UHGV virus genome: UHGV-1354680
DNA from: a virus
Length of the DNA stretch: 22,016 nt
Direction: 5' to 3' (one strand)
Shown: in pieces, positions 2,976 to 6,399 of the stretch
Numbering within the stretch: the first letter of the stretch is position 1
How the letters are laid out: each line of letters opens with the position of its first letter
The notes under the pieces: model-generated
Told to the model about the DNA's origin: nothing
The model's database searches: none
The model's input: the letters and a program-made list of their open reading frames with translations, nothing else
Program-made: the position numbers and the translations under genes

Positions 2976-3268
2976 AAATGTCTCCCTGTTTTTTTATGGC
3001 TTATGCAGTTTGCCATCCATGACGGAACGATACCGTATCCGCCTGTTTAGGTGTGGGCGATTGTAACAGCACGTCAACTGATGTCCAGACGCCCTGATTT
3101 GCTGATTTGATCATAGCCTGGTAATCGCCGCCCTGTAGGCTACTTGATTCAATAGAAACAGAAAAAGGCAAACGCGGCCTTTTCTACATTTTCAGAGTAA
3201 CTCCCGCCAGTTGCGAGCAAAAAAGCCGCTACGCTTTAGCTATACGTGCTAATTCAAGAGAAGAGACC

Positions 3269-4201
3269 ATGGACAACGACAAAATTGATCAACACAGCGA
3301 CGAAATTGAAGTTGAGAGCGAAGAAAAAGAGCGCGGTAAAAAAATAGAAATAGATGAAGACCGACTCCCCTCCCGGGCGATGGCAATTCATGAGCATATC
3401 CGCCAGGATGGTGAAAAAGAGCTGGAACGCGACGCAATGGCGCTACTGTGGTCAGCCATTGCGGCGGGCCTGTCGATGGGCGCTTCGCTACTGGCAAAAG
3501 GGATATTTCATGTCGAACTGGAAGGCGTGCCGGGCAGCTTCTTGCTGGAGAATCTCGGTTATACCTTTGGTTTTATTATCGTCATAATGGCCCGCCAGCA
3601 ATTATTTACCGAAAACACCGTAACTGCGGTACTACCCGTCATGCAAAAACCGACAATGAGCAACGTCGGCTTACTTATGCGGTTATGGGGCATCGTGCTG
3701 CTGGGTAATATTCTCGGGACAGGTATTGCTGCGTGGGCATTTGAATATATGCCTATCTTCAATGAAGAAACTCGCGATGCATTTGTCAAAATCGGCATGG
3801 ATGTGATGAAGAACACCCCCAGCGAGATGTTTGCCAACGCGATCATTTCCGGCTGGCTGATCGCCACTATGGTATGGATGTTTCCTGCAGCGGGTGCGGC
3901 AAAGATTGTGGTGATTATATTGATGACCTGGCTTATTGCCCTGGGTGACACCACCCACATCGTTGTCGGTTCTGTTGAAATCCTCTATCTGGTGTTTAAC
4001 GGCACGCTGCACTGGAGCGATTTCATCTGGCCCTTCGCACTACCTACTTTAGCGGGGAACATCTGCGGCGGCACCTTTATCTTCGCGTTAATGAGTCATG
4101 CACAGATTCGTAACGACATGAGCAACAAGCGCAAAGCAGAAGCACGTCAAAAAGCAGAACGTGCGGAAAACATTAAGAAAAATGATAAAAACCCGGCATA
4201 A
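3269..4201 (+). CDS. yfdC: inner membrane protein YfdC, formate/nitrite transporter (FNT) family
   Basis: 310 aa with multiple hydrophobic segments and a charged N-terminus; sits between mlaA and argW as in the E. coli map. Confidence 0.8.
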   Translation: MDNDKIDQHSDEIEVESEEKERGKKIEIDEDRLPSRAMAIHEHIRQDGEKELERDAMALLWSAIAAGLSMGASLLAKGIFHVELEGVPGSFLLENLGYTFGFIIVIMARQQLFTENTVTAVLPVMQKPTMSNVGLLMRLWGIVLLGNILGTGIAAWAFEYMPIFNEETRDAFVKIGMDVMKNTPSEMFANAIISGWLIATMVWMFPAAGAAKIVVIILMTWLIALGDTTHIVVGSVEILYLVFNGTLHWSDFIWPFALPTLAGNICGGTFIFALMSHAQIRNDMSNKRKAEARQKAERAENIKKNDKNPA

Positions 4202-4276: not shown

Positions 4277-4351
4277 GTCCTCTTAGTTAAATGGATATAA
4301 CGAGCCCCTCCTAAGGGCTAATTGCAGGTTCGATTCCTGCAGGGGACACCA
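4277..4351 (+). tRNA. argW: tRNA-Arg (anticodon CCU)
   Basis: GTCCTCTTAGTTAAATGGATATAACGAGCCCCTCCTAAGGGCTAATTGCAGGTTCGATTCCTGCAGGGGACACCA. Acceptor stem GTCCTCT/AGGGGAC, anticodon loop CT-CCT-AA, T-arm GGTTCGATTCC, 3' CCA encoded. Confidence 0.9.
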
Positions 4352-4476: not shown

Positions 4477-4512
4477 GTGGATAAAATAATTTTACCCACC
4501 GGATTTTTACCC

Positions 4513-5670
4513 ATGCTCACTGTTAAGCAGATTGAAGCAGCAAAGCCGAAAGAAAAACCATACCGCCTTCTCGATGGTAATGGCCTGTACCTTTATGTCC
4601 CTGTGTCAGGGAAAAAGGTATGGCAGCTTCGCTACAAGATTGACGGTAAGGAGAAAATCCTGACCGTCGGAAAATATCCGCTTATGACTTTGCAAGAGGC
4701 AAGGGATAAAGCATGGACTGCGAGGAAAGACATCTCGGTTGGCATCGATCCGGTAAAGGCGAAAAAGGCTTCGTCTAACAACAATTCCTTTAGTGCGATT
4801 TACAAGGAATGGTACGAGCACAAGAAGCAGGTCTGGTCAGTAGGATATGCAACTGAACTTGCAAAAATGTTTGATGACGACATTTTACCTATCATCGGCG
4901 GTCTTGAGATTCAGGATATTGAGCCGATGCAACTGCTGGAAGTAATCCGCAGATTTGAAGATCGCGGCGCAATGGAGCGAGCCAACAAAGCACGCAGAAG
5001 ATGCGGCGAGGTTTTCCGTTACGCTATTGTCACCGGAAGGGCTAAATATAACCCGGCACCTGACCTTGCAGACGCCATGAAAGGATACCGCAAGAAGAAC
5101 TTCCCGTTTCTTCCTGCAGACCAGATCCCGGCATTCAACAAAGCACTGGCAACATTTTCAGGAAGTATCGTATCGCTCATTGCGACCAAAGTTTTACGCT
5201 ACACAGCCCTAAGAACAAAAGAGCTTCGTTCCATGCAATGGAAGAACGTCGATTTTGAAAACAGGATTATCACCATCGACGCCAGTGTGATGAAGGGACG
5301 CAAAATTCATGTGGTCCCGATGTCGGACCAGGTGGTTGAACTTCTCACTACGCTAAGCTCAATCACTAAACCAGTATCAGAGTTTGTTTTTGCCGGGCGC
5401 AACGATAAGAAGAAGCCAATCTGCGAGAACGCGGTACTGCTTGTGATCAAACAAATCGGCTATGAAGGTCTGGAAAGCGGTCACGGATTCAGGCATGAAT
5501 TCAGCACGATTATGAACGAGCACGAATGGCCCGCTGATGCTATTGAAGTGCAACTGGCACATGCCAACGGCGGATCTGTGCGCGGGATTTACAACCATGC
5601 TCAGTATCTCGATAAGCGCAGAGAAATGATGCAGTGGTGGGCGGATTGGCTTGATGAAAAGGTGGCATAG
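4513..5670 (+). CDS. intS: P4-type tyrosine integrase
   Basis: Translation MLTVKQIEAAKPKEKPYRLLDGNGLYLYVPVSGKKVWQLRYK… with a C-terminal catalytic region (…HGFRHEF…HANGGSVRGIYNHAQY). ATG at 4513 gives 385 aa, the length remembered for argW-associated IntS; the track start at 4477 is GTG. Confidence 0.85.
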   Translation: MLTVKQIEAAKPKEKPYRLLDGNGLYLYVPVSGKKVWQLRYKIDGKEKILTVGKYPLMTLQEARDKAWTARKDISVGIDPVKAKKASSNNNSFSAIYKEWYEHKKQVWSVGYATELAKMFDDDILPIIGGLEIQDIEPMQLLEVIRRFEDRGAMERANKARRRCGEVFRYAIVTGRAKYNPAPDLADAMKGYRKKNFPFLPADQIPAFNKALATFSGSIVSLIATKVLRYTALRTKELRSMQWKNVDFENRIITIDASVMKGRKIHVVPMSDQVVELLTTLSSITKPVSEFVFAGRNDKKKPICENAVLLVIKQIGYEGLESGHGFRHEFSTIMNEHEWPADAIEVQLAHANGGSVRGIYNHAQYLDKRREMMQWWADWLDEKVA

Positions 5671-5673
5671 CGC

Positions 5674-5746
5674 CACCTACATCCCTGGGCAATCATCAAA
5701 CTAACCTGCACGCGCATCGTTGATGATGTAGGTGATCACCACAAAT
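5674..5746. repeat. long imperfect inverted repeat
   Basis: cacctacatc…aatcatcaa // ttgatgat gtaggtg: 10-bp outer and 8-bp inner arms around a ~20-nt loop. No U-tract follows on either strand, so it is not a clear intrinsic terminator. Confidence 0.4.
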
Positions 5747-5769
5747 ACAGGTCGAGAAGTCTCAGAGGC

Positions 5770-6066
5770 CTAATTCTTGTCAGGAATCCTCTCCCTCTTT
5801 CCGTTATCCAGATTTTCCAGATGCGGTTGCGGGTATGTCAGGTAACGCTTAATTCTGAACTCACCATCAGTTGCACAAACCAGCAATGAGCCATCACATG
5901 GGTTCAAAGATGCATCAACGACAAAGAGAGCGCCACTTAGGATGCCTTCCCGGTAGTGTGTTGCCCCCGTTTTCATGAAGTAGGTAGCCACTGGCCTCGA
6001 TATGATACGCTTGTCGATCGATATGTGCTCCTCTATGCAGTCTTGTGCAGGACTGGGGAATCCCAT
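5770..6066 (-). CDS. UmuD'-like (S24 LexA/UmuD-fold) protein lacking the N-terminal arm and the serine nucleophile motif; ends at an in-frame TAG
   Basis: From the ATG at 6066: MGFPSPAQDCIEEHISIDKRIISRPVATYFMKTGATHYREG…DGEFRIKRY… is colinear with E. coli UmuD residues 25-100 (GFPSPAADYVEQRIDL…ATYFVKASGDSM…DGEFTVKKL). GGAGGT lies 5 nt upstream of this ATG. The 64 upstream codons of the 162-aa track ORF cover the SD and LexA box and are Y/H-rich, so they are treated as 5' UTR. Confidence 0.7.
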   Translation of the reverse strand: MGFPSPAQDCIEEHISIDKRIISRPVATYFMKTGATHYREGILSGALFVVDASLNPCDGSLLVCATDGEFRIKRYLTYPQPHLENLDNGKRERIPDKN

Positions 6067-6083
6067 GATGCACCTCCGATAAT

Positions 6084-6103
6084 CGCTGTATGCACATACA
6101 GTA
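6084..6103. promoter_or_regulatory. LexA box (SOS operator) upstream of the UmuD'-like gene
   Basis: CGCTGTATGCACATACAGTA has an exact CTGT-N8-ACAG core, centred about 28 nt upstream of the ATG at 6066 and next to a possible promoter (TTGAAC…AATAAT on the minus strand). Confidence 0.7.
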
Positions 6104-6294
6104 ATTATTTGTTGGTGGCGGAGTTCAACAAGAATGGAGTATGCTTTTGCTAAGCACGCGAATGCGTATAGGGAATTTTTTGAGTGGTAGAAGTACGAGT
6201 GTAAGACTGAATGATAGACACGCAAGACCATGGAGACTTGAATGTACATGGAAATCAATGAGACTCTAACTTTACCTACCTATAGGGGTCACTG

Positions 6295-6381
6295 ATGAAT
6301 AGCAAAATTGTAGTTGCAATTAACATCGTCGCGTTTTTGCTTCTGGTTTACTTCGTAAACAAGCACCACCCATTCATGTAG
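6295..6381 (+). CDS. hypothetical 28-aa hydrophobic peptide (candidate single-pass membrane peptide)
   Basis: ATG at 6295 preceded by AGGGGT with 5-nt spacing. Translation MNSKIVVAINIVAFLLLVYFVNKHHPFM, stop TAG 6379-6381. Below the 60-aa ORF-track cutoff; no homology evidence. Confidence 0.3.
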   Translation: MNSKIVVAINIVAFLLLVYFVNKHHPFM

Positions 6382-6399
6382 CCATCCATGGCTGCATCA

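What the first reader, a model, noticed from the sequence alone, without database searches (positions are those of the whole stretch)
5701..5772. In-frame amber codon splits the UmuD'-like gene; UmuD C-terminal homology continues after the stop
The ORF ends …RIPDKN-TAG (5772-5770), but the same frame continues for 22 more sense codons, ASETSRPVFVVITYIINDARAG, before a second TAG at 5703-5701. That segment resembles the UmuD C-terminus (…SSEDTLDVFGVVIHVV…), so coding-type conservation extends past the stop. Either this is a recent nonsense mutation (decaying cargo gene), or the full-length 121-aa product is made only under amber suppression or read-through. The long inverted repeat at 5674-5746 lies inside this extension.
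Basis: seen in the sequence. Interest (0 to 1): 0.6.

Follow-up and report, generated by a model that had tools for sequence, protein, structure and literature searches.

The report
Decaying phage UmuD'-like (HumD) pseudogene
A small SOS-repair accessory gene carried as cargo by a P22-like prophage of E. coli has been knocked out by two point mutations that each turned a glutamate codon into a stop, and related phages show it being deleted piecemeal, so this is an ordinary dying gene rather than a case of stop-codon read-through.

Summary
On the minus strand, an ORF starting at ATG 6066 ends at TAG 5772-5770. The same frame runs 22 sense codons to a second TAG (5703-5701), then 7 more codons to a third TAG (5679-5677).

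The gene belongs to the 129-aa HumD family: phage P1-type UmuD' analogues that lack the UmuD pro-segment. The post-stop peptide alone matches the family profile at E=5.7e-10. Full-length relatives carry GAG (Glu) at both internal TAG positions, so there were two G>T nonsense mutations. A third G>T change hits an invariant Gly (G109V).

All ~25 carriers examined have both TAGs, including phages Huey and APC_JM3.2, E. coli assemblies and metagenome contigs.

- Sibling phages Louie and Bas106, and one metagenome contig, have two different deletions. Each removes the promoter, SOS box, start codon and about 60 codons.
- Salmonella BTP1-like phages have independently broken the homologous gene.
- The window lineage shows roughly 5-fold faster amino-acid change, including before the first stop.
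- TAG is a normal stop for other genes of this prophage, and no suppressor tRNA was found.

Verdict: a pseudogenised lysogenic-conversion cargo gene. Read-through is very unlikely. Low interest.

The parts
5677..6066 (-). Ancestral HumD-family (UmuD'-like) reading frame: 129 codons plus the original stop TAG at 5679-5677. It is now interrupted by two amber codons.
   Evidence: Translation is. The reconstructed product matches NF051876 at 1-129/129 with 196.9 bits. Full-length relatives of 129-130 aa end at this position.
5770..6066 (-). Present-day ORF: 98 codons plus TAG. This is the N-terminal three quarters of HumD.
   Evidence: It hits NF051876 at 1-97/129 with 145.8 bits. The same ORF is annotated as a 98-aa 'DNA polymerase V subunit' in phage APC_JM3.2.
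5770..5772 (-). First amber codon (codon 99). It derives from GAG (Glu) by a G>T change.
   Evidence: DNA alignment and polarised substitutions. HK140, E. coli 14EC047, L023 and L024 all have GAG here.
5701..5703 (-). Second amber codon (codon 122). It derives from an invariant GAG (Glu) by a G>T change.
   Evidence: E122 is invariant in 43 aligned relatives and at least 95% conserved in 111.
5740..5742 (-). GTG codon 109: a Gly>Val (GGG>GTG) replacement of an invariant Gly in the last long beta-strand. It corresponds to the FGVV motif of UmuD'.
   Evidence: alignment to UmuD'.
6086..6103 (-). LexA (SOS) box TACTGTATGTGCATACAG, upstream of the gene.
   Evidence: It is the only match in the window; 0.03 matches are expected by chance. 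Some sibling copies carry point changes inside it, at -23 and -31.
6073..6077 (-). Shine-Dalgarno GGAGG, 6 nt before the ATG.
   Evidence: Read from the sequence. It is mutated to TGAGG in the Huey haplotype.
5657..5677 (-). Hairpin GGTGGCGCTATGCCACC followed by TTTT. This is a plausible terminator of the HumD/late transcript. It overlaps the last codons of the convergent integrase gene.
   Evidence: Sequence and predicted hairpin. It did not pass the strict terminator scan because it has only 4 T. Function is inferred, not shown.
4477..5670 (+). IntS-type integrase, convergent with the HumD gene. It lies next to tRNA-Arg(CCT) argW at 4277-4351, which marks the prophage left end.
   Evidence: The host flank is 100% identical to E. 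coli chromosomes.
6400..8391 (-). Tailspike gene immediately upstream. The HumD allele always travels with this tailspike.
   Evidence: Huey, Dewey and Louie use O16 O-antigen as receptor (PMC12243541).

Best explanation
The locus is a pseudogenised HumD-family gene. HumD is the phage P1-type, pre-processed UmuD' analogue that would partner host UmuC in SOS translesion synthesis. The gene sits as a LexA-controlled moron between the tailspike and the integrase of an O16-type P22-like (Lederbergvirus) prophage at argW in E. coli.

In an ancestor of this phage clade, two GAG (Glu) codons, 99 and 122, each became TAG by a G>T transversion. A third G>T change replaced an invariant Gly (G109V).

Translation now stops after 98 residues. 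The product lacks the last long beta-strand, which aligns with the VFGVVIHVV strand of UmuD'. By inference it cannot fold or dimerise as UmuD' does.

The gene is no longer maintained by selection. It is drifting and being deleted in sister phages.

Shown: the mutations, their ancestry, their distribution, the deletions and the relaxed constraint. Inferred: loss of function of the 98-aa product.
For: **1. Family and ancestral state**
- The gene matches NF051876 HumD.
- It is 60.6% identical to P1/P7 HumD over 127 aa.
- 111 full-length relatives of 126-132 aa exist; the closest is 81% identical.
- Relatives have GAG at both TAG positions.

**2. The allele is fixed**
- Every carrier examined has both TAGs.
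- Carriers comprise three haplotypes in three integration contexts: argW/IntS, the dacD-sbmC-yeeA side, and the ybhB-bioA side.
- Pattern scans with NNN at the first TAG (codon 99) found no close allele with a sense codon there.

**3. Continuing decay**
- Louie and Bas106 share a ~490-bp deletion that removes the promoter, SOS box, SD, ATG and about 62 codons. Dewey shows the same match pattern.
- Metagenome contig L031 has a different deletion junction.
- Both kinds of remnant still carry both TAGs.
- Sibling copies have point changes in the SOS box and the SD.

**4. Relaxed constraint**
- The window allele violates 6 of 57 columns that are at least 95% conserved: R14H, L17I, L48F, R76L, G109V, E122*. 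Among 111 intact members the mean is 0.77 and the maximum is 5.
- From the pairwise distances, I derived three-taxon branch estimates by hand: dN ~0.097 and dS ~0.49 on the window branch, against dN ~0.018 and dS ~0.43 on the nearest intact allele. The pre-stop 98 codons alone are about 4-fold accelerated.
- Within the clade, diversity in the ORF (6/294) equals that of the upstream non-coding DNA (7/330).

**5. No recoding**
- TAG ends int and two virion genes.
- The window holds only tRNA-Arg(CCT). Huey and APC_JM3.2 hold no tRNA.

**6. Precedent**
- The homologous gene in Salmonella BTP1/MG40 is independently broken by a TAA at codon 29 plus a frameshift near codon 100.

**7. What is lost**
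- In an AF2 model of an intact relative, strands 107-117 and 122-124 lie after the first stop (moderate confidence).
- These residues align with the C-terminal strand of solved UmuD'.
Against: - The 98-codon ORF, its SD and its SOS box are intact in the window itself.
- Many lineage-specific replacements before the stop are conservative (V>I, L>I, R>K, T>S).
- Within-clade changes in the ORF are 3 nonsynonymous to 3 synonymous. That is too few to exclude residual purifying selection on the truncated product.
- Synonymous sites between alleles are near saturation (dS about 1 to over 2), so the branch estimates are rough.
- The post-stop DNA is well conserved within the clade. This could also reflect a second function such as a terminator or recombination site.
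- No expression or activity data exist.
Confidence: 0.85

Rival explanations
1. The 98-aa C-terminally truncated HumD is a functional, selected product. One possibility is a monomeric UmuD'-like fragment that binds UmuC, RecA or the beta-clamp and modulates (perhaps dampens) SOS mutagenesis in the lysogen. On this reading the first TAG is a new, genuine stop codon.
For: - The ORF, SD and SOS box are intact in the window and in most carriers.
- The allele has persisted through three haplotypes and three integration-module swaps.
- Most pre-stop replacements are conservative.
- The 98-aa ORF still scores above the HumD family cutoff, at 145.8 against 120 bits.
Against: - Two independent deletions remove its 5' half and all expression signals in viable sibling phages.
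- Four columns that are at least 95% conserved are violated within the 98 residues, and dN there is about 4-fold accelerated.
- The SD or SOS box is mutated in some carriers.
- The lost segment includes the longest beta-strand of the fold.
- ORF diversity equals non-coding diversity.
Confidence: 0.1
2. A full-length 129-aa HumD is made conditionally, by amber suppression or read-through of both TAG codons. This would gate a mutagenic protein to suppressor-bearing hosts or to particular physiological states.
For: - The frame is preserved through both TAGs with no indel.
- The post-stop peptide still matches the family profile at E=5.7e-10.
- Both stops are the same codon, TAG, in all carriers.
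Against: - Two successive ambers multiply the already low basal read-through (this rests on general knowledge, not a test here).
- TAG is used as the true stop of int and two virion genes in the same prophage.
- No suppressor tRNA was found in the window or in the Huey and APC_JM3.2 genomes.
- The invariant Gly109 in the post-stop part is mutated to Val.
- Sibling phages delete the gene's 5' half.
- Huey was isolated on E. coli K-12 with restored O16 O-antigen (PMC12243541). Its suppressor status was not checked here.
Confidence: 0.03
3. The TAGs are sequencing or assembly errors in this window.
For: None found.
Against: The same two TAGs occur in about 25 independent sequences. These include two isolated phages, NCBI E. 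coli assemblies, and ENA, Logan, IMG/VR and JGI contigs.
Confidence: 0.01

Closest known systems
Bacteriophage P1/P7 HumD (NCBIfam NF051876, 'HumD family translesion DNA polymerase'). It is described as a functional UmuD' homologue by McLenigan et al. 1999, J Bacteriol 181:7005. I know that paper only from its title as cited in PMC8460599 and PMC4713147; the paper itself is not held.
   Same: - The protein starts at the MGFPSPA motif, which corresponds to the post-cleavage N-terminus of UmuD'.
- The ancestral length is 129 aa.
- It is 60.6% identical to P1/P7 HumD over 127 residues.
- A LexA box lies upstream.
- It is carried by a temperate phage, and no umuC partner gene is seen among the P22-like structural ORFs of the window.
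   Different: - The reading frame is interrupted by two amber codons and carries G109V.
- It is located in a P22-like podovirus between tailspike and integrase, not in a P1 plasmid-prophage.
E. coli UmuD / UmuD' (PDB 1umu, 1i4v, 1ay9, 8gmt)
   Same: - It has the S24-type fold sequence signature. phmmer gives E=4.5e-15 over query residues 2-116.
- Lys73 aligns with catalytic Lys97.
- The C-terminal strand VFxVIxxII aligns with VFGVVIHVV.
   Different: - There is no 24-residue pro-segment and no cleavage site.
- Thr36 stands in place of the nucleophile Ser60 (GATHY against GDSM). Thr is the consensus here in the aligned relatives.
- There is no adjacent umuC.
- The protein is truncated.
UmuD-like genes of lambdoid and linear-plasmid phages: HK140 gp28, HK639, N15 gp26, phiKO2 gp23
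   Same: - They are intact 127-130-aa homologues, 61-76% identical.
- They occupy the same late-operon-distal, att/int-proximal position.
- HK140 shares the DNA up to the last few codons.
   Different: These copies are intact, with GAG at both positions.
Decayed HumD-like gene of Salmonella Lederbergvirus BTP1 / MG40 / ST-35 / BIS08P22
   Same: - The genomic slot is the same, between the O-antigen conversion/tailspike end and int.
- A LexA box is present.
- The gene is inactivated.
   Different: The lesions are independent and different: a TAA at codon 29 and a frameshift near codon 100, instead of two ambers.

Membership tests
HumD family (NCBIfam NF051876, equivalog, 129 positions) | Whole-protein score above the curated cutoff (120 bits). 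| tested here: met
   The 98-aa ORF scores 145.8 bits. The reconstructed 129-aa protein scores 196.9 bits.
HumD family (NCBIfam NF051876, equivalog, 129 positions) | Uninterrupted ORF covering the full profile (about 129 aa). | tested here: not met
   The ORF covers profile positions 1-97 only. Codons 99 and 122 are TAG. It is therefore a pseudogene of the family, not a functional member.
HumD family (NCBIfam NF051876, equivalog, 129 positions) | Pre-processed form: the protein starts at the residue equivalent to UmuD Gly25, with no pro-segment or cleavage site. | tested here: met
   Query residue 2 aligns with UmuD' residue 1 and with residue 25 of full-length UmuD (8gmt_B). The SD sits 6 nt before this ATG, and the SOS box lies inside the longer TTG-initiated ORF.
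HumD family (NCBIfam NF051876, equivalog, 129 positions) | Supports SOS mutagenesis together with UmuC. | not testable with these tools
   This needs a genetic complementation assay in a umuD-null, umuC+ host.
SOS regulon gene | LexA operator (CTGT-N8-ACAG) in the promoter region. | tested here: met
   TACTGTATGTGCATACAG lies at 6086-6103 (-). It is the only match in the window, with 0.03 expected by chance. LexA binding itself was not tested.
Peptidase S24 (Pfam PF00717; LexA/UmuD self-cleaving proteases) | Domain match above the gathering score. | tested here: met
   28.5 bits against a cutoff of 23.3, aligning residues 1-76.
Peptidase S24 (Pfam PF00717; LexA/UmuD self-cleaving proteases) | Ser-Lys catalytic dyad. 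| tested here: not met
   Thr36 aligns with UmuD Ser60 (GATHY against GDSM). Lys73 aligns with Lys97. Thr is the consensus at this position among the aligned relatives.
Programmed stop-codon read-through or recoded TAG | TAG is not used as a terminator elsewhere in the element, and/or a cognate suppressor tRNA is present. | tested here: not met
   TAG terminates int (4477-5670) and the ORFs at 12930-13388 and 15660-16142. The only tRNA in the window is Arg(CCT), and there is none in Huey or APC_JM3.2. Host genomes beyond the window were not examined.

The most novel reading that the evidence does not exclude
The doubly amber-marked allele is not junk. On this reading, either the 98-aa N-terminal fragment is a selected anti-mutagenic or regulatory UmuD' decoy expressed from an intact SOS promoter, or rare double read-through supplies trace amounts of an otherwise too-mutagenic, constitutively active UmuD'. 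That would explain why the allele spread with the O16 tailspike module across three integration backgrounds.
Probability: 0.08. Interest if true: 0.5.

Novelty: new member of a known kind. Interest (0 to 1): 0.15.

Why it matters
There are three modest points.

- **Annotation.** Public records call this ORF a 98-aa 'DNA polymerase V subunit' (APC_JM3.2) or a 159-aa 'UmuD-like protein' (Huey). Neither flags it as a broken 129-aa HumD gene.
- **Moron decay.** HumD-type SOS-mutagenesis morons appear to be repeatedly lost from P22-like phages. Here this happens by nonsense mutations, at least two independent deletions, and an independent stop plus frameshift in BTP1. This fits weak or transient selective value, or a cost, for a constitutively active UmuD' in lysogens.
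- **Phylogenetic marker.** The allele marks a tailspike-linked module moving between integration modules.

The locus does not bear on stop-codon recoding.

Tried and rejected
- **Pfam.** The NCBIfam HumD profile and the PDB alignment could.
- **E. coli genomes.** Megablast of the locus against 5,426 complete E. coli genomes found no copy of this allele. The best hit was an intact 80%-identical relative in strain 14EC047. PGAP flags that copy as partial although its 129-codon frame is open.
- **Pattern scans.** I scanned for a close allele with any other codon at the first TAG. Genome contigs gave nothing; viral and metagenome contigs gave three loci, all with TAG.
- **Terminator scan.** The strict consensus scan found nothing in 5500-6450.
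- **RNA fold.** The inverted-repeat region folds no better than shuffled sequence (z = -1.2). I do not treat the 'long inverted repeat' as a demonstrated structure. Its arms are conserved coding sequence (ITYIIN / FDD...M*) in intact relatives too.
- **Rfam.** An E-value scan of 5400-6500 gave no hit.
- **Substitution analysis.** Counting window-specific substitutions at sites where four outgroups agree is biased toward nonsynonymous sites. I did not use it as a dN/dS estimate. Pairwise NG86 values have saturated dS and are used only as rough relative rates.
- **Structure model.** The AF2 model of the intact relative has only moderate confidence (pLDDT 64.6). I ran no fold search on it.
- **Literature.** McLenigan et al. 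1999 (PMC94175) is not held.

Full report
**1. What is in the sequence**

On the minus strand an ATG at 6066-6064 is preceded by GGAGG (6077-6073). A perfect LexA box, TACTGTATGTGCATACAG, lies at 6103-6086. It is the only match in the window, with 0.03 expected by chance.

The frame reads MGFPSPAQDC...RIPDKN for 98 codons, then TAG (5772-5770). It continues with ASETSRPVFVVITYIINDARAG, then TAG (5703-5701), then FDDCPGM, then TAG (5679-5677). It missed that the frame continues for seven more codons past the second TAG.

A hairpin GGTGGCGCTATGCCACC followed by TTTT comes next (5677-5657). It overlaps the end of the convergent integrase gene (4477-5670, +).

**2. Context**

- The left 4.27 kb of the window is E. 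coli chromosome (yfcZ-fadL-mlaA-yfdC) at 100% identity.
- tRNA-Arg(CCT), argW, is at 4277-4351.
- An IntS-type integrase follows. The rest of the window is a P22-like virion module: tailspike 6400-8391, ejection proteins, coat, scaffold, portal, terminase.
- The closest phage records over the locus are Escherichia phages Huey (98.6%) and APC_JM3.2 (98.9%), both Lederbergvirus. Huey and its siblings use the O16 O-antigen as receptor (PMC12243541).
- The gene therefore sits in the classic moron slot between the tailspike and the integration module.

**3. Identity of the gene**

- The 98-aa ORF hits NCBIfam NF051876, 'HumD family translesion DNA polymerase' (an equivalog with a 129-position profile), at positions 1-97 with 145.8 bits against a cutoff of 120.
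- With Glu placed at the two TAGs, the 129-aa product covers 1-129 at 196.9 bits.
- The 30-aa post-stop peptive alone hits positions 102-129 at E=5.7e-10.
- Against solved structures the product aligns with UmuD' (1umu) over residues 2-116 at E=4.5e-15. Residue 2 pairs with the first residue of processed UmuD', and RPVFVVITYII pairs with LDVFGVVIHVV.
- P1/P7 HumD is 60.6% identical over 127 residues.
- Thr36 stands in place of the S24 nucleophile Ser60, and Lys73 aligns with Lys97. Thr is the consensus at this position in the aligned relatives.

**4. Ancestral state of the stops**

In a search of 5.8 billion proteins, 466 relatives were found. Almost all of the best 120 are 128-129 aa, and the closest intact one is 81% identical.

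DNA alignment with HK140 gp28 (130 aa), E. coli 14EC047 (open 129-codon frame) and two metagenomic intact alleles shows GAG at both TAG positions, with the same final stop. Both ambers are therefore G>T transversions of Glu codons.

A third G>T change in between converts the invariant Gly of the FGV motif to Val (G109V). E122 and G109 are invariant in 43 aligned relatives.

**5. Distribution**

The truncated protein clusters (98-aa and 159-aa calls of the same ORF) are carried on 21 and 12 contigs. In every sequence examined both TAGs are present. These include the window, Huey, APC_JM3.2, NCBI E. coli assemblies, and ENA, Logan, IMG/VR and JGI contigs.

There are three haplotypes and three right-hand contexts:
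- IntS and argW, as in the window;
- a junction next to dacD-sbmC-yeeA-type genes;
- a junction next to ybhB-bioA-bioB-type genes.

The similarity to APC_JM3.2 and HK140 breaks within the last few codons, where a different integration module begins.

Pattern scans allowing any codon at the first TAG found no sense-codon variant of this allele in viral, genome or metagenome collections. The double-amber allele is thus older than the diversification of this clade. It has been carried along with the tailspike through several recombination events.

**6. Evidence that it is decaying rather than recoded**

- (a) *Deletions.* Phages Louie and CurroJimenez_Bas106 share a ~490-bp deletion, with junction ...GGGTGGTGC|AACTGATGG.... 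Dewey shows the same match pattern. The deletion removes the promoter, SOS box, SD, ATG and about 62 codons. Metagenome contig L031 has a different junction (CCATGGATGGCT|CATTGCTGG). Both remnants retain both TAGs. These are viable, plaque-forming phages.
- (b) *Expression signals.* Sibling copies carry point changes in the SD (GGAGG>TGAGG, Huey type) and in the SOS box (-23 in APC_JM3.2, -31 in L008).
- (c) *Conserved columns.* The window allele violates 6 of 57 columns that are at least 95% conserved in 111 intact relatives. Four of these lie before the first stop. Intact members average 0.77, with a maximum of 5.
- (d) *Substitution rates.* From the pairwise distances, I derived three-taxon branch estimates by hand. 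The window branch has dN ~0.097 at dS ~0.49 (omega ~0.2). The nearest intact allele has dN ~0.018 at dS ~0.43 (omega ~0.04). The first 98 codons alone show about 4-fold acceleration. dS is near saturation, so these figures are rough.
- (e) *Within-clade diversity.* It is the same in the ORF (6/294, 3 nonsynonymous to 3 synonymous) as in the upstream non-coding DNA (7/330).
- (f) *TAG usage.* TAG is the genuine stop of int and of the ORFs at 12930-13388 and 15660-16142.
- (g) *tRNAs.* No tRNA other than argW is present in the window, and none in the Huey or APC_JM3.2 genomes.
- (h) *Precedent.* The homologous gene in Salmonella phages BTP1/MG40 occupies the same slot and has its own SOS box. 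It is independently broken by a TAA at codon 29 and a frameshift near codon 100. Other phages (Sf101, mEp234, E212, Stx phages) hold only 3' fragments.

**7. What the truncation removes**

In an AlphaFold model of the closest intact relative (mean pLDDT 64.6, moderate), the longest strand (107-117) and a short strand (122-124) lie after codon 99.

By alignment these correspond to the C-terminal strand of UmuD'. From my own knowledge of the UmuD' structures, that strand is part of the core sheet and of the dimer interface; I did not test this here. Loss of function of the 98-aa product is therefore inferred, not shown.

**8. Rivals**

- *Functional truncated protein.* This cannot be excluded. 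The ORF and its signals are intact in the window, many pre-stop replacements are conservative, and within-clade counts are too small to measure selection. The deletions, the violations of conserved columns and the accelerated dN in the retained part argue against it (probability ~0.1).
- *Read-through or suppression.* This would need two ambers to be read through, and would yield a protein with a damaged invariant Gly, in an element that uses TAG as a stop (probability ~0.03).
- *Sequencing error.* Excluded by the independent assemblies.

**9. Verdict**

This is a pseudogenised member of a known family (HumD, the UmuD' analogues of temperate phages). It is of low general interest beyond annotation and as an example of recurrent loss of SOS-mutagenesis morons in P22-like phages.

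Noticed in passing
L032 (Louie) 1501-1811, L033 (Bas106) 1501-1811, L031 5850-6090; these correspond to window ~5873-6362: Two independent deletions with different junctions remove the 5' half of the HumD pseudogene and the whole intergenic region. Both spare the ~200-bp 3' remnant. The deletion junctions lie in short similar sequences.
   Followed up: yes
L034 (BTP1) 1160-1610; L035 (MG40): Salmonella Lederbergvirus BTP1/MG40 carries a HumD-like gene between gtrA and int, with its own LexA box (TACTGTATTAATATACAGTA). It is broken by a TAA at codon 29 and a frameshift near codon 100. The records annotate it as unrelated small ORFs or on the opposite strand.
   Followed up: partly
phage records (Sf101, mEp234, E212: query 45-127; Stx phages 2851, 1717, Stx2a_F349 etc.: query 73-127); L004 (HK140) 2818-2964: Many lambdoid and Stx phages keep only an unannotated 3' fragment of a HumD-like gene, at the very end of the prophage record. 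In HK140 the annotated putative attP overlaps the 3' end of the intact gene. The 3' end of humD may be retained because it overlaps att or integration-module sequence.
   Followed up: no
window 6295-6381 (+): A 28-codon ORF encodes a hydrophobic peptide (MNSKIVVAINIVAFLLLVYFVNKHHPFM). It lies between the tailspike stop and the HumD promoter, convergent with the tailspike. It has no Pfam match, and there is no Rfam hit in the region. It is removed by the Louie/Bas106 deletion. It could be a small membrane protein or type I toxin-like moron, or nothing.
   Followed up: partly
window 5959-5961 (codon 36, Thr) and relatives: The aligned HumD-type relatives have Thr as the consensus (GxTHY) where UmuD and LexA have the nucleophilic Ser (GDSM). 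The general-base Lys is kept. This fits a protein that no longer needs self-cleavage.
   Followed up: partly
L002 (Huey) 3184-3301 against window 5600-5717: Huey matches the window through the last ~70 nt of the IntS-type integrase gene, but it then carries a different integrase/excisionase pair. It therefore holds a short IntS 3' remnant, a scar of an integration-module swap.
   Followed up: no
L001 (E. coli 14EC047) 3043-3432: PGAP annotates this HumD homologue as a partial pseudogene that is 'missing C-terminus'. Its 129-codon frame is open and ends at the family's normal stop. This is probably an annotation artefact.
   Followed up: partly
Both arms are conserved coding sequence in intact relatives, and the predicted RNA structure is not significantly stable. 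Only the adjacent 7-bp GC-rich hairpin plus TTTT (5657-5677) looks like a functional element.
   Followed up: partly
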